A stretch of 64,000 nucleotides of DNA from Bacteriovoracia bacterium (GTDB lineage Bacteria; Bdellovibrionota; UBA1018; CAIPTA01): assembly GCA_050246755.1 (NCBI GenBank), contig JBFWVL010000001.1:928001-992000 (forward strand), read 5' to 3'. Shown here in pieces: positions 30,982 to 40,806 of the stretch (its first letter is position 1; every line of letters starts with the position of its first letter). Made by a program: the position numbers and the translations under genes. The notes beneath the pieces were generated by a model that saw only the letters and a list, made by a program, of their open reading frames with translations, did not search any database and was not told the origin of the DNA.

Positions 30982-31134
30982 CGAATTCCTCTTAGAAAGG
31001 CTTACCGCTCCAGTACTTTTGGCACAATCGGAATGCGGCTAAAAGTTGATTGTGACATCCCGCAGCCCAAGCTATTTCCCTCGAATTTGCCTTGGTCCAA
31101 TGAATTTATCTGTAGCATAATCGGCCCACTCACT

Positions 31135-32664
31135 ATGGCGTCTCCCCTCAATCCCAATATAAGCGCCCTCACTGATTCTTTGAGCCAATCATTTAGCCAA
31201 GCTCGCCCATTTCCGCATGTTGTGGCCGATAACTTTCTCGCGCCGGAATTTGCACAAAAACTATTCGCCCAGTTTCCTCCTTTTGCCCAAGAACGGGCAA
31301 TCGCCGAGCACGGAAAAGTGGGAGGTAAAGCTACCCGGGAAAACATGCGCGAGCTTGGCTCTGCCTTTCAGGAGCTAGACGAATTCTTCGCTTCTGCCGA
31401 TTTTTTGGGCTGGATGAGTCAGCTAACTGGAATTCCTGATCTGCTCTATGACCCCGAATATTTTGGGGGGGGCACTCATGAAAATCTCCCGGGCCAAGAC
31501 ATGAGTGTGCACGTGGATTTCAACTACCACCCCACGCGCGGCTGGCACCGGCGCTTAAATGTGCTCATTTATCTAAATCCCGAGTGGGAAGAAAGTTGGG
31601 GCGGGTCGTTAGAGCTTTGGCAAAATCCTTGGGATGCACCGAACAAAAACTCCATCGCAAAAATCACTCCCCGCTGGAATCGCATGGTGGCCTTTCCCAC
31701 CACGGAGCATTCTTGGCATGGATTTGAGACAGTAAAAATTCCTGAATATGCCCGAAATCGTGTTCCTTCCCGCAGGAGCATTGCACTTTACCTCTATTCG
31801 AAAGATAGGCCGGCCGCCGAAATGGGTACCATGCACAGCACGGTCTACTACGAAAGGCCGCTGCCGGAATCCATCCGGGCGGAAAAAGTGATTAGTAGGG
31901 CAGATTGGAACGAAATGACGCGCCTCATAGCAAGGCGGGATGATTTGCTGAAGATGATCTACGCAAGGGAAGGTCGATTTAATGGCCTTATCGCTGAGCT
32001 AGAAAAAAAGAATAGGGAACAAGAGCACGCCCTCCGGATCGCTGGTGGATCTTTGTCATCCGCTTCGGCCAGTGTGCCGCTTGAAATCGTAAAAGAACAA
32101 CAAGAGACGATTCATCAACTTATGACGCTGGTGACTCAACTCGCCAATAGCCCTACCTCCACGAGTCCACTGCTTTTTTTGCCCTCCGTTTCCGACGTCC
32201 ATACCGCCTGCTCCGGTTTTTGGCGGCTAAAAATGCTGAGCGCTGGCGTAAAAGTAAAAGTGCTTCAGAAATTTCAGCTTCGCCCGAAGATATGGGCCTT
32301 GGTTAAACTGCGCGATTCTGATCGCTTGCAACTCGTTTACCTAGCGCAGGAATTTCAGAATTTTTTTCTCGCCCATCAGGCCACTAGCCCCGGAACCCTG
32401 CTGATTCCCCACCGGGCCGTTTACGGCCAAGTGGTAGAGCTGAGAAATCAGATGGGCGAAAGAATTTTTCTGCCCAATGAACTCAGGACTCGCTTTTATA
32501 GCCTGGCCCTTGCTTGGCTCTTCGTGCTCGTACACGTGGCCAAAAACATCTTGTTTCGCCGGGTGCGCAGTCCCTGGCTTTGGCGCGCTTCCGTGCTCTA
32601 CCGCCGCGCCCTAAAAACGCTTGGGATTCATGTACCCGTAGTGCCTCCGCCCTCTGGACTCTAG
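31135..32664 (+). CDS. 2OG-Fe(II) oxygenase with coiled coil and C-terminal extension
   Basis: PFPHVVADNFL, HVDFN (HxD), SWHGF, RRSIA; start at MASPLN. Confidence 0.88.
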   Translation: MASPLNPNISALTDSLSQSFSQARPFPHVVADNFLAPEFAQKLFAQFPPFAQERAIAEHGKVGGKATRENMRELGSAFQELDEFFASADFLGWMSQLTGIPDLLYDPEYFGGGTHENLPGQDMSVHVDFNYHPTRGWHRRLNVLIYLNPEWEESWGGSLELWQNPWDAPNKNSIAKITPRWNRMVAFPTTEHSWHGFETVKIPEYARNRVPSRRSIALYLYSKDRPAAEMGTMHSTVYYERPLPESIRAEKVISRADWNEMTRLIARRDDLLKMIYAREGRFNGLIAELEKKNREQEHALRIAGGSLSSASASVPLEIVKEQQETIHQLMTLVTQLANSPTSTSPLLFLPSVSDVHTACSGFWRLKMLSAGVKVKVLQKFQLRPKIWALVKLRDSDRLQLVYLAQEFQNFFLAHQATSPGTLLIPHRAVYGQVVELRNQMGERIFLPNELRTRFYSLALAWLFVLVHVAKNILFRRVRSPWLWRASVLYRRALKTLGIHVPVVPPPSGL

Positions 32665-32690
32665 GCCCAAAAGTATGGTTCACTAGGGCC

Positions 32691-34619
32691 ATGCTCCCCT
32701 CAACACAGCGCAATGAAAGGCTTGTGGGCTTTTGTAGCGCTCCCTGGACCGATTGCATCACCTACGCCGATGGCGAGCTCAAAGCTTGCGATCGAAACGT
32801 GGCGTCTTTCGGTAACTGGCAAAAAGACGGGCTGAAAAAAACCTGGAACAGCGAAAAATTTCAAAGTTTCCGAGCCGCCGTTCGTGAAGGCCGTTATCCA
32901 GACCAAGACTGTGCCAGCTGCCACAACAATGGAACTCAGCGCACGGCGGAAAGCAGTATGGGCGGTGCTTACCACGCTCATAATGAATTTCTTTGCCGGT
33001 TCTTGGGTGTTTCCACGATCGAAGAGATTGAACAATTCCGGCAATTTTTCAGCCTAAAAAAACGTAACGCCGAAAGCGATCTAGCGTTCCCTGTTTTTTA
33101 CCGCTATCTGGATCAGCTAAAAGCCGATCACCCGGGCGCATTTGAGAGCAATCGCGAATTCCACAATGCGGTAGTGAAACTGCGGGTACTGGCGGAAGCA
33201 CTAGAGGATTATCTCGGCGGCGCGCTCGAGCCGCGAAGAGTGGCCACGTTCCGCCAGTCTCAGCTGCAAGCAAAATGCACCGCCCGCTGCGTAATGTGCG
33301 CCGGAAAATTTACCGGCGAAATTGTGGATGGTCCTACGATGGACGAGCAGTTCGTGGATGAGGCCTTTGCCGAGATTGAAGACGTGACTGATTTCTGGTG
33401 CAACGGCGCGGAGTATCTCTACTACAAAGAGTGGAAGAAAATCGCGCTCATGCTTGCCAATGAAGGAACCAAGCTCCGCGTTTCCACCAACGGCATTCTG
33501 CTCACCGAGCCCACGATCAAGTTTATGATCGACAACGGCATCCTGCGCTTTCTCACCGTAAGCATCGATGCTGCCACCAAGGAAACCTTGGAATCCACGC
33601 GCGTAAATGTGAATTTCGAGAAAACCATGGCGCGCATAAAATATTTGCTCGAATACGCCCAAGAGAAAAATCTCGTGTTCGAGTTCACCGCCGCGTTCGT
33701 GATGATGAAAAGAAATCTCGCCGAGCTTCCTGCTTTCGTTCGTCTGATACATAGCCTGCGTCCGCCAGGCTGCAAACAGCTGGTAACCGTGCTTTGCCAG
33801 CCACTCGAGAATTTCGACGTCCTGAACTATCGGCGTTTCGTGCACGGAGAACATCACTCGCTATTTGGCGAGGAAAAGCTAAAAGAAATTTTCCAGGAAA
33901 CTTACCGTGCCCACCTCGAAACGGGCGTGCAGGTCTCCTTCTATAATCAAAAGCTGAAGGAATTTATGGAAGCGGGCATGCCCTTCCCCCGTTTTTTCCC
34001 ACGCCGTACCGATATGGATATTTTGTTGGCGGATCTAGCTCGTTCCGAAGCCCGCATTCCCTTCCTCCACGAGGCGATCGAAAAGGATTTTAACTCTATC
34101 CTGGAAAGCACCAAGGGCGATGCCGCGGCGCTGCACCGGGCGGTTTTATGTCAGGCGAACGCGCTGCTGGAAAAGAACGCGGTTGTCCAGGAGATCGTTC
34201 TGGCGTTTCCCGAGCTGAAGTCCCGGCTCGAAACGATTATGCCGAACTGGGCTTCTAATTTTTTGGCGAAAAAAGTTCCTTCCACGGCCCAAGCGAGCGA
34301 ATCGGAAGTAGAGGTAAGAAATTTGGAATCCGAAAGCCCTGCGGCAAAATCCGCCCAGCATTTCGGCGTAATGGTAAGCTCGGCGAACGGATCGGTATTA
34401 TTGGAATCTTCAGTTCCGGGATCAAATCCTTTGCGTCGAGCTTTTGTCGGGCTTTTAGGAAAAGTGTATATTGCCGTTCACCGTCTAAAGACCAAGCTAG
34501 TCGGTGATCGTAAAAGCCTGCTCCTATGGAATTTATCGGTAGCTTATCGCCGCGCTCTGGCCGCATTCGGCCTACGCGTGAATCCGTTGCCCATCGACAA
34601 TCAACGAAGTGGCGGCTAA
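32691..34619 (+). CDS. Radical SAM protein with N-terminal SPASM/twitch domain
   Basis: FCSAPW..ACD..GNW..TWNS..FR..CASC, then CTARCVMC, STNGILL, SIDAAT. Confidence 0.88.
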   Translation: MLPSTQRNERLVGFCSAPWTDCITYADGELKACDRNVASFGNWQKDGLKKTWNSEKFQSFRAAVREGRYPDQDCASCHNNGTQRTAESSMGGAYHAHNEFLCRFLGVSTIEEIEQFRQFFSLKKRNAESDLAFPVFYRYLDQLKADHPGAFESNREFHNAVVKLRVLAEALEDYLGGALEPRRVATFRQSQLQAKCTARCVMCAGKFTGEIVDGPTMDEQFVDEAFAEIEDVTDFWCNGAEYLYYKEWKKIALMLANEGTKLRVSTNGILLTEPTIKFMIDNGILRFLTVSIDAATKETLESTRVNVNFEKTMARIKYLLEYAQEKNLVFEFTAAFVMMKRNLAELPAFVRLIHSLRPPGCKQLVTVLCQPLENFDVLNYRRFVHGEHHSLFGEEKLKEIFQETYRAHLETGVQVSFYNQKLKEFMEAGMPFPRFFPRRTDMDILLADLARSEARIPFLHEAIEKDFNSILESTKGDAAALHRAVLCQANALLEKNAVVQEIVLAFPELKSRLETIMPNWASNFLAKKVPSTAQASESEVEVRNLESESPAAKSAQHFGVMVSSANGSVLLESSVPGSNPLRRAFVGLLGKVYIAVHRLKTKLVGDRKSLLLWNLSVAYRRALAAFGLRVNPLPIDNQRSGG

Positions 34620-34627
34620 GAGGCGCG

Positions 34628-36043
34628 ATGGCAAAATACACCAAAAAACTTCCCGAAAACTTTTGCATCCTTCCTTTTACGACGATGCTCGTCCGGGCAG
34701 ATGCCAGCGTGTCTGTTTGCTGCCTGAATTCTTCTTCGGCCACCAATGAAGGTGGCGAACAGCTGCACTTATATAAAGATCCGCTGAAGCGGGCCTTCCA
34801 TTCGCCCCTGTTTCAAGAGCTGCGGGCCGATATGTCGGCGGGGAAAAGACATCCCAGCTGCGAAAACTGCTGGCGCGACGATGACGCCGGAATTCCCTCG
34901 AAACGCATTGCCGATAATGAGATTTGGGGCCACTGGGTGGATCCTAGCCTAGAAGGAAAAGGCCCCGACTCCCCCATAGACGTAAGCTTTAATCTCGGCA
35001 CGCTTTGCAATCTGAAATGCCGGATTTGCGGATCCACTTCTTCTTCGCGCTGGGCCCAGGAATATCTCGAGCTTTTTGGCACCGACCATATTCCTCGCAA
35101 TAACGATTTCATTAAGAAAATGCCGCTCGAGGAATCTCGAGCGCTGCTTTCGAACTGGCCGCAGAAAAATCCTGAGCTCACTTCCACTATTTTCGAGTGG
35201 CTTCCCCATATGGAAAGAATGGAGTTTCTCGGCGGAGAACCTTTCCTGAATATGAAGCAGTTTGAAATTGTGGCGAAGTCAGTGGAGATCGGCGCGGCCA
35301 AGAATCAAGCGTTACATTTCGCCACCAACGGGTCACAATTCCCCGACGAATCAGCGCGTGAGAAGTGGTCCCACTTTAAGTACGTAAACGTGAATATAAG
35401 CGTAGACGGCCTCAGGGATCAGTTTGAGTACCAGCGCTTCGGCGCAAAATGGGATCAAGCACTCGCCAATATCGAGAAGTACCGAGCGCTCGATAGCGTG
35501 GATCTCGTGCAGATCTATTTGAGCATCAGCGTTTTCACGGTATTTTATCTGCCGGAAATTCTTTCTTTCTGGCATAAACGTGGCTTAAACGTTTGCCTAT
35601 CCACCGTTACGAACCCACATCGGTTCGACGCGCGGGTGATTCCTCCGCCGCTCAAGAAAATGATCCTGGAAAAATACACCCATTACCAGAATGAGCTCCC
35701 CGCTGATCTTCGGGAAAAAATGAACGGGGTGGGCAACTTCATGAATTCCGCGGACCACTCCAATCTTTGGCTGAAGTTTATCGAGTCCGTTTGGTTTCAC
35801 GATGACTATCGTAAGCAGTCTTTCTCTCAGACTTTTCCCGAATTTCACGCGGAAATCGAACGCCAGGGATTCTGGTACGATTATGTCTCTCAAAAAGACT
35901 TGTTTCTTCAGCATTCTGGCGAAGAACCGATTCCCTCGCAAAAGAAAGAAGCCGTGCTTGGCTCCTCCGTTCCTATTCCGAAAATAGCCCAACGCAAAAC
36001 CTGGATATCTCGATTTATGGGCCGTGGCAGCGATTCACTCTAG
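34628..36043 (+). CDS. Twitch-domain radical SAM protein
   Basis: FCILPF..VCC..CENCW, LGTLCNLKCRICG..SSSRW, GGEPFL, SVDG. Confidence 0.9.
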   Translation: MAKYTKKLPENFCILPFTTMLVRADASVSVCCLNSSSATNEGGEQLHLYKDPLKRAFHSPLFQELRADMSAGKRHPSCENCWRDDDAGIPSKRIADNEIWGHWVDPSLEGKGPDSPIDVSFNLGTLCNLKCRICGSTSSSRWAQEYLELFGTDHIPRNNDFIKKMPLEESRALLSNWPQKNPELTSTIFEWLPHMERMEFLGGEPFLNMKQFEIVAKSVEIGAAKNQALHFATNGSQFPDESAREKWSHFKYVNVNISVDGLRDQFEYQRFGAKWDQALANIEKYRALDSVDLVQIYLSISVFTVFYLPEILSFWHKRGLNVCLSTVTNPHRFDARVIPPPLKKMILEKYTHYQNELPADLREKMNGVGNFMNSADHSNLWLKFIESVWFHDDYRKQSFSQTFPEFHAEIERQGFWYDYVSQKDLFLQHSGEEPIPSQKKEAVLGSSVPIPKIAQRKTWISRFMGRGSDSL

Positions 36044-36051
36044 GAGAGGGT

Positions 36052-37002
36052 TTGGCGCAAAAGAAAAAATTATCGATCATCATTCCCGTCTTCAACGAAG
36101 CCGAAAACATTACGCGCATCTATGAGGAACTGTGCTCTGTTCGCACCTCCTCGCTCGCGCCTTATGAATTTGAGATCCTTTTCATGGATAATCATAGTGA
36201 AGATGCCTCCTTCTCCACGATCGCTTCCCTGGCGCAAAATGACTCCTCGGTGCGAGTGATCCGGCTGAGCCGAAATTTCGGTTACCAAGCGAATATCTTA
36301 ACTGGATTCAGAAACTGTACTGGCCACGCTGCTATTCAGCTGGACGCCGACGGGGAAGACGATCCCGCACTGATTCCAGCCTTGGTAAAGCGATGGGAGG
36401 AAGGCTTCAAGGTGGTGTACGGCATTCGGCGTAAGCGCTTTGAAAGCATATTCCTATCGTGGCAGCGAAAGATTTTCTACCGGCTCCTCAGATGGCTATC
36501 TTCCGTGCCGATTCCGGTAGACTCCGGAGATTTCCGCCTAATAGATCGCCAAGTAATCGAATGCCTGCGCTCTTTCGATGAAGCCAATCCCTACCTGCGG
36601 GGCCTAATCGCTTTCGCCGGGTTCCGGAGCACTGGCGTGCCCTATGACCGGCGTCCGCGATATAAAGGGCAAGGCAAACTTTCGTGGTGGAGCTATGTTT
36701 TTCTGGGAATCGACGGAATATGCTCTTTCTCTAAAAAGCCGCTCGCCGTGGCAACCTGGGCGGGCCTTTTTCTCTTTGGTGCCGGTGGAGTTCTATTTGG
36801 TTTTCAGCTTTGGAAAATGCCCCATATGGAGGAAACGGTCTCCTGGGCGCCTTTCCTTCTTAGCACTCAGCTGTTGGTGGGCGGAATTCAGCTTCTCTGT
36901 TTAGGCATCATGGGTCTATACGTGGGCCGAATTCTCGATGAGGCGAAGGGCCGGCCCATTAGCGTGATCGAGAACACTCTTTCTTCGAAAGGCGACGAAT
37001 AG
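36052..37002 (+). CDS. GT2 polyprenyl-phosphate glycosyltransferase (GtrB-like)
   Basis: SIIIPVFNE, LSRNFG, LDADGEDDP, SGDFRL, two C-terminal TM helices, GRI..EAKGRP. Confidence 0.92.
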   Translation: MAQKKKLSIIIPVFNEAENITRIYEELCSVRTSSLAPYEFEILFMDNHSEDASFSTIASLAQNDSSVRVIRLSRNFGYQANILTGFRNCTGHAAIQLDADGEDDPALIPALVKRWEEGFKVVYGIRRKRFESIFLSWQRKIFYRLLRWLSSVPIPVDSGDFRLIDRQVIECLRSFDEANPYLRGLIAFAGFRSTGVPYDRRPRYKGQGKLSWWSYVFLGIDGICSFSKKPLAVATWAGLFLFGAGGVLFGFQLWKMPHMEETVSWAPFLLSTQLLVGGIQLLCLGIMGLYVGRILDEAKGRPISVIENTLSSKGDE

Positions 37003-37947
37003 TTGTCCAGCTCCATTAAAAAATCCGTCTCACGAAAGATTCTGATCACGGGAGCTTCTGGATTTATTGGCTCGCACTTAACGAGCCACTTTCTATCCCT
37101 TGGCTACGAGGTTCACACAATCAACAAACGCGAAGTCGCGTCTTTGCCCTCCGCGGCTCGCCAACATATTGCAGATTTCGCCGATCAATCCTCGCTGGGA
37201 TCCACGCTCGAAAAAATTGCCGCGCCAATCGTTGTTCACTTAGCGGGCCGAACGGTGCCTGGCCGCGACTTTGCGGAGTTCGGGAAGCAATTTGAAAATA
37301 CAGTATCGCCCGCCATTCACATGGCATTGGAGCTTCCAGTCGCTACCAAGCTAGCGTTATTTTTTGGCTCTTGTGAAGAGTATGGAAACGGACCGGCTCC
37401 CTTCCGTGAAGAAAACTGTCCGGTGGCATTCTCCCCTTACGGCTGGGGAAAAATTTCAGCCTTCTACGGCGCCACCTTGATCGCCCGGCAACGCCAATTG
37501 AACTGGTGCTGGCTGCGGCCTTTTCTCACGTTCGGGCCAGGCCAAGAATCCCAGCTTTTGATACCCACCTTGATCCGGGGCTGCTTGGCGGGCGAAGACG
37601 TAGACCTCTCGCCGGGCGAGCAAACTCGCGACTTTTTATACGTTGAGGACTTATGCCAGATGATCTCCACGATTGTCGGCACCCCTGAACGCGCGCGCGG
37701 GGAAATCATCAATCTATGCTCAGGAGTGCCCCGCACAGTAAAATCCGTGGCCGAGAAAGTAAGGGATCTTGCGGGCGGAGGCAACTTAAGATTTGGCGCG
37801 TCTCCTTATCGGGCCGAAGAGGCAATGCAGTTTTTTGGCTCTGGAGAAAAATTCACGCGGCTCTTTGGGAAACCTCGCCTAACCGAATTTGAAAAAGCCC
37901 TGCGCCTCACCCTGGACTTTCAACGCTCGGAAGAGATTAAAAAATGA
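37003..37947 (+). CDS. NAD-dependent epimerase/dehydratase (extended SDR, NDP-sugar reductase-like)
   Basis: GASGFIG, GSCEEYG, YGWGK, TRDFLYVED. Confidence 0.9.
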   Translation: MSSSIKKSVSRKILITGASGFIGSHLTSHFLSLGYEVHTINKREVASLPSAARQHIADFADQSSLGSTLEKIAAPIVVHLAGRTVPGRDFAEFGKQFENTVSPAIHMALELPVATKLALFFGSCEEYGNGPAPFREENCPVAFSPYGWGKISAFYGATLIARQRQLNWCWLRPFLTFGPGQESQLLIPTLIRGCLAGEDVDLSPGEQTRDFLYVEDLCQMISTIVGTPERARGEIINLCSGVPRTVKSVAEKVRDLAGGGNLRFGASPYRAEEAMQFFGSGEKFTRLFGKPRLTEFEKALRLTLDFQRSEEIKK

Positions 37948-39299
37948 CCGCATTTTTTCGTAGAGAATGGCTACGGCAGCTCGTTCCTTGCCTTGGCCTA
38001 CTTGCCGGATTCATTTATCTGATTTTTTCGCTTAATGCGGAGCTTCGGGGGGCCGCCAGGTACTTGGGACAACCGATCTATCCCCGGGTAGAGGATTGGA
38101 TTTCAAGTGCCGAATGTTCCCAAAAAACGCATACGTTTCTCGTATTATGCCAAAAAGATGAGGCCGGAAATTATATTCCCATTGAAAATGCATCTTATGG
38201 AGATGACCGGGCCCATGCCCTAATTGGAAATATCTTAAGCTGGATTACTAGTGAAAAGGTGGGCCTGCTCACTTACATAAAAGTTAACTTCTTCCTTAAT
38301 GCCTTCGGCATTTTCTCTTTAGCCCTCTCGCTTTTTTTTTCCGACAGAAAGTTGGCATCGTTGGCGGCTCTATTCTTTGGCGCCCAATTCGGGATTAACC
38401 ACGAATACGCCTCGGCCGATGTAACCGCCGCGCATATCGGGATTGCCAGTCTCGCCCTAACTCCGATCGTCTGGTGGTCACACTGGGCAAAACTCGGCAC
38501 CCTTCCGAGACGATGGTTTTGGGGCTCTCTCCTCCCCGGTCTCTCGCTCACGTTTGCCGTGCTTCTCCGCGAGCCCGTGGGTCGTGCGGCGGAACTAGGA
38601 TGCCTATTCATTGCCGCTTGCGTATTATGGAAATTTATTCATATGGCAGCCGGAGAATCCCGCGCGCAAAGTAAAAAAATTCTTTTTGCCCTGTTTCTCT
38701 CCGTGTTTTTTGCCCATTTCGGAACCTGGATTATTTTATCAGCGCGAAACCTTCTCTACCCCGTGGCTCCTAGTTCGCATTCTATTTCTCACGGAATCGC
38801 GCACAATTTGTATATGGGCCTAGGATACCTACCTAATTCTTTTGGCATTAAAAACGAGGATGAATTCGCGATGGAGGCCGCCAAGAAGGAAGAGCCCGAT
38901 TCGAACTATCTAACTGATCTTCATTTCAAGGTCATGTGGCGCCTTTATTTTCGGGCGGTTAGCGAGAACCCGCGCGAAGTTCTACGTATCTATACCCAAA
39001 AGACGAAAAAAATATTTAAGCTCTACTTCTTTCGTGATTTTTTGCTCTGGAAAGCATTCGCGGTCGCTTTTCTCCTGAGCGCGGCCGCCTTTTTGCTGGT
39101 GCGCCCCTCGCCTTGGATGGAGTTTTTGCCGATTTACCTTTACCTCGCGCTTTATTACCTGCAGGGCGTGCTAGCCACCCCGGTGGAAGTTTTCCTGTAC
39201 GGGGGAAAAACAATCGTTGTCCTAATTATAATTTTATCGGTAAATCGAATCTTTAGCTGGATCAGAAATTCATATCCAGACGGATTTTTGCGTTCTTAA
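37944..39299 (+). CDS. Polytopic membrane protein, probable GT-C glycosyltransferase
   Basis: ~10 TM segments with large loops, acidic first loop (YGDD), HNLYMGLG motif; in an operon with the GtrB-like gene. Confidence 0.55.
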   Translation: MTAFFRREWLRQLVPCLGLLAGFIYLIFSLNAELRGAARYLGQPIYPRVEDWISSAECSQKTHTFLVLCQKDEAGNYIPIENASYGDDRAHALIGNILSWITSEKVGLLTYIKVNFFLNAFGIFSLALSLFFSDRKLASLAALFFGAQFGINHEYASADVTAAHIGIASLALTPIVWWSHWAKLGTLPRRWFWGSLLPGLSLTFAVLLREPVGRAAELGCLFIAACVLWKFIHMAAGESRAQSKKILFALFLSVFFAHFGTWIILSARNLLYPVAPSSHSISHGIAHNLYMGLGYLPNSFGIKNEDEFAMEAAKKEEPDSNYLTDLHFKVMWRLYFRAVSENPREVLRIYTQKTKKIFKLYFFRDFLLWKAFAVAFLLSAAAFLLVRPSPWMEFLPIYLYLALYYLQGVLATPVEVFLYGGKTIVVLIIILSVNRIFSWIRNSYPDGFLRS

Positions 39300-40806
39300 G
39301 AAGATCCTGCTTTAGTTCCGTAAGCTCGGTGCGGTGGGGGTGCTCCGGCAGATGCACGGCTTCCTGCTCATAGTGTTCCACGGCCATTCCGTTCCACTGC
39401 ACGAACTGCGAAAAATCTATACAATCCGCGCCCACTTCTTCCGCCAGCCTCACGAACTCACGCATGGTGCGAAAATTCGCCTTTCTCACCACGAAACGCA
39501 AAGCAAAATCCTTAAATTCCCCCTTGCGGCGCTTCTCTCCCACCCAGCGTAAATTTTCCCAAAGCCGATCCCAGTCGCCGCCACGCACCTCGGCATATAC
39601 TTCTTTTGTGCCGGCATCCACCGACACGGCCACGCGGCGAATAAGCTCAGTTCCCGGGCGAAGCTCGTCGAAGGTTTTTTGGTTGAATAGTATCCCGTTC
39701 GTAACCAGGTCTACCTCGCGCAACCGAGGAAAGCGGCTCTTGTCGCCCGCACTCTTTAAAAGTTCGCGCAGGTAAGAACTGAAAAAAACTTCGCCATCGG
39801 CCGACATTTTCATCACTTCAATTGTGCTCGCAAATCGCGCCAGCGACTCGTCGGTCTTTTTCAGCAAGCCTTCGGCGTAAGGAGTAAGTTTCGTAATTTT
39901 TTCTTTCCGGCAGGAAGGACAAGCCAAATTGCAGCGCGGATCACCGGTGATCGAAGCATACGCCGGTCCTTCGGCTAAAAACTCCACACCTTCCGCCATC
40001 GCCGCAATATTACGTTCAGAAATCGGGGGATAAAGAGGCTCTTTCCGCTCTCTCATTTCTTCAATTTCATCGAGGCTATATAGCTTGGCCTGGCAGATAT
40101 CCCGGCGGCAATAACGGTAGTCTCCCGCCAGAACGGCTTTTCTTAGAGCAGTGGCGCCCGGGCCGCTCCAGGCATCGTGCTTCCCTTGAAGGTTCGCGTA
40201 GTATTCACGCGGCTCGAGGGCATAGTACTCATCGGTGAGCCAAGTATAGCAGCAAGGCACAAATGGGCCGTACGCCGGGATATCCATTTGGGAAAAAGGA
40301 TGTGGACAAATTTTCGTTTCAAAATAAGCGGGTGGCCCGGCACGAACGGCGGTAAAGGCAACCGACATCTGGCGGCTGTCTTGTGGATAGTCGGTGCCCC
40401 GTTCGTTCCAGGCGGAATACCGAAAGCTTAGAACGCGGGAGCTGTTCGATGCGGGAACGCGCAAAACTGAAGTTATTTTTTCCAGCTGAGAATTTATCTG
40501 AAACTCGCCGATCAACTTTCCGTCTATTCGGACGGAGATTTTTAGGTCGGGAATTTGCGAAGCCAAGGTGAACTTAACAGCCGATTCTTGGCTCGAAGAG
40601 CCCAGCGAAAATATGGTTTCTGGCCCTTTAGACCAGCGCCAACTATGCCCGGTCTGGGAATCAATTTCCAAATCATATAGGCCAGAGGGTATGGCTCCGC
40701 CCGGGAAACGAAGTAAATCGCTAAGGACCGAATTTTCTTTTGGCGCGTTTGGTACGGCCTTTTTCCAGCGAAACATCAAAATTATTTGTAGCACAGCCGC
40801 GAACAT
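39262..40806 (-). CDS. Radical SAM protein with N-terminal beta-sandwich and twitch domains
   Basis: WRWS..DSRQMSV domain; ICPHPF..PCC..YCRRDIC; CNLACPSC, VTNGILF, SVDAGT. Confidence 0.88.
   Translation of the reverse strand: MFAAVLQIILMFRWKKAVPNAPKENSVLSDLLRFPGGAIPSGLYDLEIDSQTGHSWRWSKGPETIFSLGSSSQESAVKFTLASQIPDLKISVRIDGKLIGEFQINSQLEKITSVLRVPASNSSRVLSFRYSAWNERGTDYPQDSRQMSVAFTAVRAGPPAYFETKICPHPFSQMDIPAYGPFVPCCYTWLTDEYYALEPREYYANLQGKHDAWSGPGATALRKAVLAGDYRYCRRDICQAKLYSLDEIEEMRERKEPLYPPISERNIAAMAEGVEFLAEGPAYASITGDPRCNLACPSCRKEKITKLTPYAEGLLKKTDESLARFASTIEVMKMSADGEVFFSSYLRELLKSAGDKSRFPRLREVDLVTNGILFNQKTFDELRPGTELIRRVAVSVDAGTKEVYAEVRGGDWDRLWENLRWVGEKRRKGEFKDFALRFVVRKANFRTMREFVRLAEEVGADCIDFSQFVQWNGMAVEHYEQEAVHLPEHPHRTELTELKQDLLKNAKIRLDMNF

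What the first reader, a model, noticed from the sequence alone, without database searches (positions are those of the whole stretch)
32476..34619. Two unrelated enzymes share the same ~57-aa C-terminal tag
Seen: the 2OG oxygenase ends NELRTRFYSLALAWLFVLVHVAKNILFRRVRSPWLWRASVLYRRALKTLGIHVPVVP (from 32476). The adjacent radical SAM ends NPLRRAFVGLLGKVYIAVHRLKTKLVGDRKSLLLWNLSVAYRRALAAFGLRVNPLP (from 34425). A hand alignment with one gap gives about 23/57 identities, including LW..SV.YRRAL...G..V..P. In both proteins it is separated from the catalytic domain by non-catalytic sequence. The next rSAM ends in a short amphipathic helix (RKTWISRFMGR). Inference: a new basic, amphipathic addressing module that docks tailoring enzymes to the membrane, to a lipid-linked substrate or to each other as a metabolon.
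Basis: partly seen in the sequence, partly recalled or inferred. Interest (0 to 1): 0.75.

Follow-up and report, generated by a model that had tools for sequence, protein, structure and literature searches.

The report
Peptidase-derived tail shared by three enzymes
Two unrelated oxidative enzymes end in the same two-helix tail, which comes from a small signal-peptidase-like protein encoded next to a peptide-chaperone gene elsewhere in the genome, so the tail probably ties all three enzymes to one rare, undescribed pathway.

Summary
The two tails align at 23/57 identities (BLASTP E 2e-6), and 0 of 20,000 shuffles reach the score. The tail matches no Pfam or NCBIfam model.

It is more than a 57-aa tag. 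A third copy ends a small S26/S24-type peptidase-like protein on another contig. In 5 of 5 genomes that protein lies directly downstream of a PqqD-family gene, inside a conserved glycosyltransferase/ABC-exporter cassette. In the 2OG oxygenase the homology runs back over a catalytically dead peptidase barrel. AlphaFold2 gives barrel plus helical hairpin (pLDDT 88.5; best fold match LexA C-domain, Z 8.2). The window's radical SAM enzyme keeps little more than the hairpin.

Among 1.84 billion representative proteins only 38 credible carriers were found. They fall into three classes: small peptidase, 2OG oxygenase and N-twitch radical SAM. All carrier genomes found belong to one family of uncultured Bdellovibrionota, the same five genomes that hold the PqqD cassette.

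Best reading (about 0.45): a peptidase-derived docking or recognition module that ties dispersed tailoring enzymes to the PqqD/peptidase pathway. The partner is unresolved. A WbdD-like membrane anchor is the main rival.

The parts
31135..32664 (+). 2OG-Fe(II) oxygenase gene. The open frame starts at 31033; the likely start is M35 at 31135, giving 509 aa.
   Evidence: ORF list. Pfam PF13640 scores 63.9 bits against a cut-off of 27. A 509-aa representative, P0005, is 100% identical over the aligned part.
31489..31794 (+). Catalytic 2OG-FeII_Oxy_3 domain (residues 153-254 of the 543-aa frame), with HVD...H motifs.
   Evidence: sequence.
32164..32445 (+). Degenerate S24/S26-type peptidase beta-barrel without the catalytic Ser, His and GDN motifs (a pseudo-peptidase).
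   Evidence: AlphaFold2 model of window:32158-32661: pLDDT 88.5, pTM 0.81, strands over residues 3-96. VIA-align: LexA C-domain Z 8.2, lambda cI 8.1, SEC11C 7.7, SipA 7.4, all on residues 11-101. Barrel-only hhalign against the small peptidases: probability 97.9%, E 5e-13. Motif loss is seen in alignments A3 and A6.
32476..32646 (+). The shared tail on the 2OG oxygenase: a two-helix hairpin (helices about 32494-32556 and 32572-32619) followed by GIHVPVVP.
   Evidence: H113-133 and H139-154.
32691..34619 (+). Radical SAM gene with an N-terminal SPASM/twitch-like Cys domain. The open frame starts at 32514; the likely start is M60 at 32691, giving 642 aa. CTARCVMC cluster motif.
   Evidence: Pfam Radical_SAM 51.3 bits and SPASM 39.2 bits. 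NCBIfam N_Twi_rSAM scores only 55.7 bits against a cut-off of 170.
34425..34592 (+). The shared tail on the radical SAM enzyme. Only a short two-strand remnant of the barrel lies before it.
   Evidence: positions 110-157 of the small-peptidase profile, E 3.1e-13. Alignment A8 shows the window protein and P0012 gapped over most of the barrel.
34628..36043 (+). Neighbouring N_Twi_rSAM family gene without the tail (context only).
   Evidence: NCBIfam NF033640 scores 295.2 bits against a cut-off of 170. Not hit by the tail HMM.
36052..39299 (+). The rest of the window operon: a GT2, an NAD-dependent epimerase and a 451-aa membrane protein (context only). These are not conserved partners of the tail-bearing genes in relatives.

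Best explanation
Shown: The intact and apparently active form is a roughly 220-aa cytoplasmic peptidase-like protein with GVSMWP, VHRL and GDN motifs, the Ser-His type of ER and archaeal signal peptidases. Its gene lies directly downstream of a PqqD-family peptide-chaperone gene, inside a conserved cassette (GT2, a multi-pass membrane protein with TPR repeats, an unknown 347-aa protein, and an ABC-2 permease and ATPase). The same domain, with the catalytic residues lost, has been fused to the C-termini of a prolyl-hydroxylase-type 2OG oxygenase and an N-twitch radical SAM enzyme. The hairpin is the part that every carrier keeps.

Inferred: The module lets tailoring enzymes encoded elsewhere in the genome find the same partner or substrate as the peptidase. 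That partner could be the PqqD-bound peptide, PqqD itself, or the peptidase through like-with-like association. This is the logic by which RiPP enzymes share a recognition element, done here with a peptidase-derived domain. Oxidation by the 2OG and radical SAM enzymes, cleavage by the peptidase and export by the ABC-2 transporter would then act on one product. The homology and fold part is near certain (about 0.9). The docking function and its partner are inference; the confidence value refers to them.
For: A third copy of the tail sits on an S26-like protein at G000:C3:209859-210527(-), found with a two-tail HMM at E 8.5e-11.

The profile of the five small peptidases aligns to 2OG C-termini well beyond the tail: L008 at positions 13-160 (E 6.7e-22) and the window 2OG at 54-160 (E 5e-18). 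The barrel-only profile-profile comparison gives probability 97.9%, E 5e-13 over 90 columns. The radical SAM C-terminal profile against the peptidase gives probability 98.7%, E 2e-16 over 131 columns.

The two AlphaFold2 models have pLDDT 87.3 and 88.5, both with pTM 0.81, and both show a barrel plus two helices. Best fold matches are LexA C-domain at Z 8.2 for both models, SipA at 7.9 and 7.4, and SEC11C at 6.3 and 7.7. The small-peptidase family profile hits signal peptidase I (4nv4, E 0.004) and SEC11A (E 0.01) in the PDB sequence set.

Distribution: 42 hits at E <= 1e-3 among 1,835,955,588 representatives. I count 38 as credible, and 37 of those carry the tail at the C-terminus. They fall into three classes. 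The tail occurs in 5 of 61 related genomes and 4 of 401 genomes sampled from the phylum, all in one family.

PqqD lies directly upstream of the small peptidase in 5 of 5 genomes and in 4 of 5 metagenome loci; the fifth contig is too short to tell. The cassette-type PqqD, the membrane/TPR protein and the 347-aa protein occur in the same 5 of 9 family genomes that carry the tail. They are absent from the other 4, apart from one weak partial hit of the 347-aa protein in G008. Every genome with a tail-bearing 2OG or radical SAM also has the tailed peptidase, and G004 has the peptidase alone.

The tail tree groups by enzyme class, not by genome, so the fusions are old and have been retained. Conserved tail positions are mostly polar or aromatic at fixed sites (K23, S32, W36, S39, Y42, R43). 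Tails are basic in 12 of 12 cases and PqqD is acidic in 5 of 5.

Precedent: the lasso-peptide RRE PadeB1 binds the leader peptide and hands it to the separate peptidase PadeB2 (abstract of PMC5067487).
Against: No binding was shown by any tool. No precursor peptide gene was found: no conserved small frame lies outside the large genes of the cassette, so a peptide substrate is assumed from PqqD alone.

Both the cassette and the window operon are rich in glycosyltransferase and ABC-2 exporter genes. That fits a glycan pathway and a membrane-anchor role equally well.

The conserved polar residues lie on one face of helix 2 and could be structural, packing against helix 1 or the barrel. With the tail removed, the small-peptidase HMM does not reach significance on the window's own 2OG (E 34 at genome-size Z); barrel homology for this protein rests on profile-profile comparison and predicted fold. 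The genomes compared are close kin, so the 5-versus-4 co-occurrence is few independent events. The E-values of the Foldseek matches are weak (about 1e-2).
Confidence: 0.45

Rival explanations
1. Peripheral membrane anchor. The basic hairpin holds cytoplasmic enzymes at the inner face of the membrane beside a lipid-linked glycan assembly and ABC-2 export machine. WbdD does this in ABC-transporter-dependent O-antigen synthesis, using a C-terminal amphipathic helix after a coiled coil.
For: Net charge is +3 to +13 in 12 of 12 tails. Helix 1 of the window 2OG reaches a mean hydrophobicity of 0.68 over 18 residues. The cassette holds several glycosyltransferases, a multi-pass membrane protein and a Wzm/Wzt-like ABC-2 exporter (best ATPase match is the galactan export Wzt/RfbE model, below its cut-off). 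The window operon holds a GT2, an epimerase and a membrane protein. The 2OG proteins have a variable-length linker between the catalytic and C-terminal domains (alignment A6). [quoted passage not shown]
Against: The helical hydrophobic moment is only moderate: the maximum is 0.40, 0.40 and 0.27 in the three tails of this genome. Hydrophobicity of helix 1 is not conserved; it is 0.24 and 0.15 in the radical SAM and peptidase tails. Both models place the hairpin against the barrel with pTM 0.81, which is not expected of a free membrane helix. Conservation sits at specific polar positions and is not a general amphipathic pattern. The hypothesis does not explain why PqqD and a peptidase accompany the module.
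Confidence: 0.25
2. No addressing role. The hairpin is simply an integral structural or regulatory cap of this lineage's S26-like barrel. It was carried along when the dead peptidase domain was fused to the two enzymes, where the barrel or hairpin serves only as a scaffold or oligomerisation piece, or is a relic.
For: The models show barrel and hairpin as one compact unit. The conserved face of helix 2 (S32, L35, W36, S39, Y42, R43, L46) has the spacing of a packing face. LexA-type domains commonly dimerise (lambda cI and LexA dimers or octamers are among the fold matches).
Against: The window's radical SAM and its relative P0012 have lost most of the barrel yet keep the hairpin with all invariant residues. 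That is hard to explain if the hairpin only caps the barrel. The module is retained in three enzyme classes over deep divergence, with 26-43% identity between tails, which speaks for a function of its own.
Confidence: 0.15
3. Chance or compositional similarity of two basic C-termini, or a recent DNA repeat.
For: Both tails are Arg/Leu-rich.
Against: 0 of 20,000 shuffles reach the score. BLASTP with composition adjustment gives E 2e-6. Homologues are found at E down to 5.8e-21 in 1.84 billion proteins, always in the same three contexts. DNA identity is only about 41%.
Confidence: 0.01

Closest known systems
Type I signal peptidases of the ER/archaeal type (S26B: SEC11A/C, archaeal SPase I) and the LexA/UmuD/lambda cI self-cleaving S24 domain
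   Same: Same beta-barrel fold: LexA C-domain Z 8.2, SEC11C Z 6.3 and 7.7, E. coli SPase I Z 6.5 and 6.8. The small protein keeps GxSMxP, a His in the position of the general base (VHRL aligned to the HRV of SEC11A) and GDN.
   Different: It has no transmembrane anchor or signal peptide. It has a conserved basic Ser/Thr-rich N-terminal arm and a C-terminal two-helix hairpin that no matched structure has (fold matches stop at about residue 100). Scores are below the curated cut-offs: sigpep_I_arch 17.6-28.1 bits against 51.85, and Peptidase_S24 21.2 against 23.3. The copies fused to the 2OG and radical SAM enzymes lack the catalytic residues.
SipA of Streptococcus pyogenes, a signal-peptidase homologue needed for pilus polymerisation (PDB 4n31; function as given in the entry title)
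   Same: It is a signal-peptidase fold put to a use other than signal-peptide cleavage. It is among the top fold matches of both models (Z 7.9 and 7.4).
   Different: SipA is a stand-alone extracytoplasmic protein. It is not a C-terminal domain on oxidative enzymes and has no helical hairpin. That SipA lacks catalytic residues is recalled, not tested here.
RiPP recognition elements (PqqD-like RRE), stand-alone or fused to several enzymes of one pathway, such as PadeB1 delivering the leader peptide to the peptidase PadeB2
   Same: The logic is the same: one homologous non-catalytic module on different enzymes of one pathway, and a stand-alone PqqD gene next to a peptidase (abstract of PMC5067487).
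   Different: The shared module here is not an RRE. It is a barrel plus two helices, not a winged helix, and has no PqqD Pfam match. It sits at the C-terminus. No precursor peptide has been identified.
WbdD of E. coli O9a: catalytic domains, a coiled coil and a C-terminal amphipathic membrane helix
   Same: Catalytic domain, then a variable linker, then a basic C-terminal helical element, in a locus with an ABC-2 type exporter and glycosyltransferases (PMC3447403 passage).
   Different: There is no sequence relation. The hairpin is predicted to pack on a folded barrel, its hydrophobic moment is moderate, and it is shared with a peptidase next to PqqD.

Membership tests
Peptidase S24/S26 (LexA / signal peptidase I) fold | Characteristic beta-barrel fold | tested here: met
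   Small peptidase model: LexA C-domain Z 8.2 (rmsd 2.4, 84 aligned), SipA 7.9, SPase I 6.5, SEC11C 6.3. Window 2OG C-terminal domain: LexA 8.2 (rmsd 3.0, 85 aligned), lambda cI 8.1, SEC11C 7.7. Foldseek probability is 1.00 but E is only about 1e-2.
Peptidase S24/S26 (LexA / signal peptidase I) fold | Sequence match above the curated family threshold | tested here: not met
   PF00717 scores 21.2 and 20.7 bits against a cut-off of 23.3, in 2 of 42 proteins scanned. TIGR02228 scores 17.6 and 28.1 against 51.85. PDB profile hits are weak (4nv4 E 0.004, SEC11A E 0.01).
Peptidase S24/S26 (LexA / signal peptidase I) fold | Catalytic Ser (GxSMxP) plus general base (Lys, or His in S26B) and the GDN(N) box | tested here: met
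   This holds for the small stand-alone protein only: GVSMWP, VHRL and GDN are present in all full-length small forms read. It does NOT hold for the domains inside the window. The 2OG C-terminal domain has SGFWRL, LVYL and QAT at those columns, and the radical SAM lacks the region. Enzyme activity was not tested.
RiPP recognition element / PqqD (is the tail itself an RRE?) | Winged-helix fold (three strands plus three helices) and a PF05402 match | tested here: not met
   The tail is two helices. Pfam scans of the tails at E <= 10 gave no PqqD match. The PqqD domain is a separate gene upstream of the small peptidase (PF05402 E 6.2e-17 in L013).
Amphipathic-helix membrane anchor (WbdD-like) | Strongly amphipathic helix that is free of the folded domain and binds lipid | tested here: inconclusive
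   Hydrophobic moment is at most 0.40. The models pack the hairpin on the barrel, pTM 0.81. Net charge is positive in 12 of 12 tails. Lipid binding and localisation cannot be tested with these tools.
C-terminal protein-sorting tags (PEP-CTERM, GlyGly-CTERM and the like) | Match to an NCBIfam CTERM model; signature motif, transmembrane helix and Arg cluster on a secreted protein | tested here: not met
   No such model was hit by the whole proteins at E <= 0.1. The carriers are a radical SAM enzyme, a 2OG oxygenase and a peptidase-like protein; I saw no N-terminal signal peptide when reading the sequences, but ran no predictor.
N_Twi_rSAM (NF033640) for the tail-bearing radical SAM | Score above the family cut-off of 170 bits | tested here: not met
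   It scores 55.7 bits, in the N-terminal twitch region only. The neighbouring gene 34628..36043 scores 295.2 bits and is a member.
2OG-Fe(II) oxygenase superfamily (PF13640) for the first carrier | Pfam match above the gathering score; HxD...H iron ligands | tested here: met
   It scores 63.9 bits against 27, covering positions 8-97 of 98 in the model. HVD and a downstream His (SWHGF) are visible in the sequence.

The most novel reading that the evidence does not exclude
The small peptidase is its own precursor. Its conserved N-terminal basic Ser/Thr-rich arm (consensus about KKxTKSxxSxxTKRSSxxTxTS, unique in the genome) would be the substrate. PqqD binds this arm. The 2OG oxygenase and the radical SAM enzyme dock onto the peptidase through their dead copies of its own barrel-hairpin domain (like-with-like association, as in LexA/UmuD dimers) and modify the arm, with the cassette's glycosyltransferases possibly acting on it too. 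The S26-like barrel then cuts the arm off in a UmuD-like self-cleavage, and the ABC-2 transporter exports it. That would be a new RiPP-like logic: a self-processing precursor-peptidase fusion with peptidase-derived recruitment domains in place of RRE fusions.
Probability: 0.1. Interest if true: 0.85.

Novelty: new variant of a known kind. Interest (0 to 1): 0.55.

Why it matters
Pathway enzymes that share a non-catalytic recognition or docking domain are a known principle; RREs and docking domains are examples. Here the shared piece is a peptidase-derived barrel plus a helical hairpin that is in no domain library. It links genes that lie on different contigs, so ordinary neighbourhood-based cluster mining would never join them. 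If the docking reading holds, the hairpin profile becomes a 'guilt-by-tail' marker that assembles a dispersed, undescribed pathway (PqqD, S26-like peptidase, 2OG oxygenase, radical SAM, glycosyltransferases, ABC-2 exporter) in uncultured Bdellovibrionota. It would also give a second example, beside the RRE, of how tailoring enzymes are brought to a common substrate. The range is narrow, one family and 38 representative proteins, so the general impact is limited unless the mechanism proves new.

Tried and rejected
(1) Complex prediction of the cassette PqqD (alignment A4) with the tail (alignment A2) gave no verdict: ipSAE 0.00 and 0.00, and the controls were not run. This counts neither for nor against binding.

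(2) Pfam at E <= 10 on the isolated tails gave only one chance-level row (EF_EFCAB10_C, E 0.21). NCBIfam gave nothing for the tail region.

(3) The profile of 12 tails against the PDB sequence set gave 0 matches at E <= 10.

(4) The ESM Atlas feature search with the tail gave a best score of 0.82, which is within the noise level the tool states.

(5) Fold searches gave only generic helical pairs for the hairpin (Z about 5).

A narrower alignment, A7, then worked.

(7) Search for a separate precursor gene. Frames of at least 25 aa conserved (blastp E <= 1e-4) in at least 3 of 5 other cassette loci all fall on the large genes or their opposite strands in L014. Very short or fast-evolving peptides would be missed.

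(8) A search of the six-frame genome with a profile of the peptidase's N-terminal motif found no second copy; the next hit has E 0.076.

(9) A crude hydropathy count on the 683-aa membrane/TPR protein gave about 9 hydrophobic segments. That is too rough to decide on which side of the membrane its TPR domain lies, so the idea that the TPR domain binds the C-terminal tails stays untested.

(10) The small-peptidase HMM with the tail removed did not reach significance on the window 2OG (E 34). Profile-profile comparison was needed.

(11) Literature searches. 'PqqD, S24, peptidase, radical SAM' found 3 papers, 2 listed, on biphenomycin-like peptides; I saw only the listing and the start of the abstracts. 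'PqqD, signal peptidase, glycosyltransferase, RiPP' found 0 papers. 'Bdellovibrio, radical SAM, RiPP' found 7 papers, 6 listed; from the listing alone none is about this module. I therefore found no description in print in that library.

Full report
OBSERVATION

The window carries a tight same-strand operon:
- a 2OG-Fe(II) oxygenase (frame 31033..32664, likely start 31135);
- a radical SAM enzyme with an N-terminal SPASM/twitch-like domain (frame 32514..34619, likely start 32691);
- a bona fide N_Twi_rSAM (likely 34628..36043);
- a GT2, an NAD-dependent epimerase and a 451-aa membrane protein.

Pfam and NCBIfam confirm the catalytic domains. A Smith-Waterman score of 85 compares with a mean of 24.1 and SD 4.8 (maximum 61) for shuffles, and 0 of 20,000 shuffles reach it. 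The two tail-coding DNAs share only 70 identical columns over about 170 bases, so this is old protein homology, not a repeat. No Pfam or NCBIfam model covers the tail. The short C-terminal helix of the third enzyme is unrelated.

A THIRD CARRIER AND THE CENSUS

An HMM of the two tails, run on all six frames of the laid genome, finds one more copy at E 8.5e-11. It lies at the C-terminus of a 222-aa protein on another contig, G000:C3:209859-210527(-).

In 61 related genomes the tail occurs in 5, all in one family (4 of 8 besides the window's genome, and 0 of 52 in twelve other families). All 12 matches lie at the end of an open frame of one of three sizes:
- 5 small frames of 203-253 aa;
- 3 2OG oxygenases;
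- 4 radical SAM enzymes.

A sample of 401 genomes of the phylum gives 4 carriers, again only in that family.

A profile of 12 tails against 1,835,955,588 representative proteins gives 42 hits at E <= 1e-3, of which 26 are at <= 1e-10. Four of the 42 are multi-stretch hits on repeat proteins such as LysM, and I discount them. Of the remaining 38, 37 carry the tail within about 20 residues of the C-terminus. The exception, P0041, is a 2OG oxygenase with the tail followed by a methyltransferase domain.

By Pfam, and by reading the sequences of those without a Pfam hit, the 38 break down as follows:
- 12 small S24/S26-like proteins;
- 9 2OG oxygenases, plus 3 fragments or truncated calls of that class (P0016, P0017, P0023);
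- 7 N-twitch radical SAM enzymes, plus 6 fragments;
- one oddity, P0018: the N-terminal part of a TIGR02147-family protein joined to the second half of the tail. It is a singleton on a 577-base contig, possibly an assembly artefact.

Record titles and one source name place the carriers in uncultured Bdellovibrionales, Bdellovibrionota or Oligoflexia genomes.

WHAT THE TAIL BELONGS TO

The small protein has GVSMWP, VHRLIG and GDN motifs. Its family profile weakly hits signal peptidase I and SEC11A in the PDB sequence set (E 0.004 and 0.01), aligned on exactly these motifs. NCBIfam's archaeal-type signal peptidase model is the best match, but it scores below its cut-off.

AlphaFold2 on the core, with a 10-row alignment, gives pLDDT 87.3 and pTM 0.81. 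The model is a beta-barrel (residues 1 to about 95) followed by two helices (106-129 and 135-150) and a short strand. The barrel matches LexA C-domain (Z 8.2), SipA (7.9), lambda cI (6.9), E. coli signal peptidase (6.5) and human SEC11C (6.3). Nothing matches the hairpin.

The profile of the five small proteins aligns to the 2OG oxygenases far upstream of the tail: positions 13-160 in L008 (E 6.7e-22), 44-160 in L007 and 54-160 in the window's enzyme (E 5e-18). Much of that score comes from the tail, so I repeated the test without it.
- The barrel-only HMM is significant for three 2OG relatives (E 1e-3 to 6e-3 at genome-size Z) but not for the window's own protein (E 34).
- A barrel-only profile-profile comparison, with the window's C-terminal domain as master, gives probability 97.9%, E 5e-13 over 90 columns.
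- The AlphaFold2 model of window:32158-32661 (pLDDT 88.5, pTM 0.81) is again a barrel plus two helices. Its best fold matches are the same set: LexA 8.2, lambda cI 8.1, SEC11C 7.7, SipA 7.4, signal peptidase 6.8.

At the catalytic columns the 2OG domains have lost the Ser, the His and the GDN. The 2OG oxygenase therefore ends in a dead copy of the whole small peptidase domain.

The radical SAM class as a whole also aligns over barrel and tail (hhalign probability 98.7%, E 2e-16, 131 columns). The window's enzyme and its close relative P0012 are gapped over most of the barrel and keep essentially the hairpin. The hairpin is the universally retained and most conserved part. Invariant positions are S32, L35, W36, S39, R43 and G50; K23 and Y42 are nearly invariant.

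CONTEXT

In 5 of 5 genomes a PqqD-family gene lies immediately upstream of the small peptidase. Its Pfam PF05402 E-value is 6.2e-17, and its best NCBIfam match is the lasso-type PqqD chaperone, below cut-off. The same arrangement holds in 4 of 5 metagenome loci; the fifth contig is too short to tell.

Around the pair is a conserved cassette:
- a GT2 whose best NCBIfam match is MftF, below cut-off;
- a roughly 680-aa multi-pass membrane protein with TPR repeats;
- an unknown 347-aa protein;
- an ABC-2 permease and its ATPase.

Further glycosyltransferases, a secreted repeat protein with a glucosaminidase domain and a metallophosphatase are conserved in 4 to 5 of 5 other loci. The cassette-type PqqD, the membrane/TPR protein and the 347-aa protein occur in the same 5 of 9 genomes of the family that carry the tail. 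They are missing from the other four, apart from one weak partial hit in G008. These genomes are kin, so this is suggestive and not statistical.

By contrast, the tail-bearing 2OG and radical SAM genes are scattered. They are adjacent to each other in two genomes (the window and L015). In G006 and G007 the radical SAM has none of the window's neighbours. In G006 the 2OG gene sits 7 kb from the cassette among nitric-oxide reductase genes. The window's glycan genes are therefore not the conserved partners. The conserved thread is the shared domain itself.

A tree of all tails groups them by enzyme class, not by genome, so the fusions are old and have been kept.

HOW IT MOST LIKELY WORKS

What is shown: a peptidase-derived barrel-hairpin domain exists in an apparently active stand-alone form next to PqqD, and as a dead C-terminal domain on two oxidative enzymes. 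The hairpin is the constant part.

What is inferred (about 0.45): the module brings the dispersed enzymes to the partner or substrate that the peptidase itself recognises. That could be the PqqD-bound peptide, PqqD, or the peptidase by like-with-like association. This is the logic of shared RiPP recognition elements, and of PadeB1 handing its peptide to PadeB2 (abstract of PMC5067487). Three points fit it:
- conserved residues at fixed polar and aromatic positions;
- retention of the hairpin where the barrel was lost;
- charge complementarity, with tails at +3 to +13 and PqqD at -2 to -6.

None of these proves binding, and no precursor peptide was found.

The main rival (about 0.25) is a peripheral membrane anchor beside an ABC-2-dependent glycan machine, as in WbdD (PMC3447403 passage). 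The basic charge and the glycan-rich loci favour it. The moderate hydrophobic moment (at most 0.40) and the predicted packing of the hairpin on the barrel speak against a simple amphipathic helix.

A purely structural role (about 0.15) fits the compact models, but not the retention of the hairpin without the barrel.

COMPARISON AND NOVELTY

The fold is S24/S26. By curated sequence thresholds it is not a member of any filed family, and the hairpin has no counterpart in Pfam, NCBIfam, the PDB sequence set or the fold libraries searched. A signal-peptidase homologue with a different job has a precedent in SipA (title of PDB 4n31). Shared recognition domains have a precedent in RREs. I rate the finding a new variant of a known kind: a new domain used in a known way, confined to one family of uncultured predatory-type bacteria. 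My three literature searches found no description of it.

LIMITS

The single complex-prediction job returned no verdict. Model coordinates could not be inspected, so which hairpin residues are exposed is unknown. Gene starts are inferred from homologue lengths. All functional statements are inference from sequence, predicted fold and gene context.

Noticed in passing
G000:C3:209859-210527(-) (L014:8860-9528), residues 1-40 of the small peptidase: A conserved, very basic Ser/Thr-rich N-terminal arm (about KKxTKSxxSxxTKRSSxxTxTS) precedes the peptidase barrel in most full-length homologues. One position is a nearly invariant Thr. Several gene calls in the databases start after it (152-aa forms). 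It has no second copy in the genome. It may be a self-cleaved arm, as in UmuD/LexA, or the pathway's substrate.
   Followed up: partly
P0018 (147 aa): The N-terminal part of a TIGR02147-family protein (92 bits against a cut-off of 50) is joined to the second helix of the tail. It is a singleton on a 577-base contig. It is either a fourth kind of carrier (a possible regulator) or an assembly chimera.
   Followed up: partly
P0041 (807 aa): A 2OG oxygenase with the barrel-hairpin domain followed by a class I methyltransferase domain. This is the only carrier in which the tail is internal.
   Followed up: no
L014:5978-8707(-) (G000 contig C3): A 909-aa secreted protein just downstream of the small peptidase has five or more tandem repeats of about GKGDKGKRVVVVVPPAPKDDSE and a C-terminal glucosaminidase domain. 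Its frame is conserved in 4 of 5 other cassette loci.
   Followed up: no
window 39262-40806 (-): A third radical SAM gene, convergent on the operon. It has an N-terminal extension of about 160 aa that matches no family, ahead of a twitch-like region. It scores only 44.8 bits on N_Twi_rSAM (cut-off 170).
   Followed up: no
window 37944-39299 (+): A 451-aa multi-pass membrane protein at the end of the operon has no Pfam or NCBIfam match.
   Followed up: no
G000:C5:116643-116930(+): A second, more distant PqqD-family gene in the genome (E 2e-19 to the cassette PqqD profile). Similar second copies occur in G003 and G004. Its neighbours were not examined.
   Followed up: no
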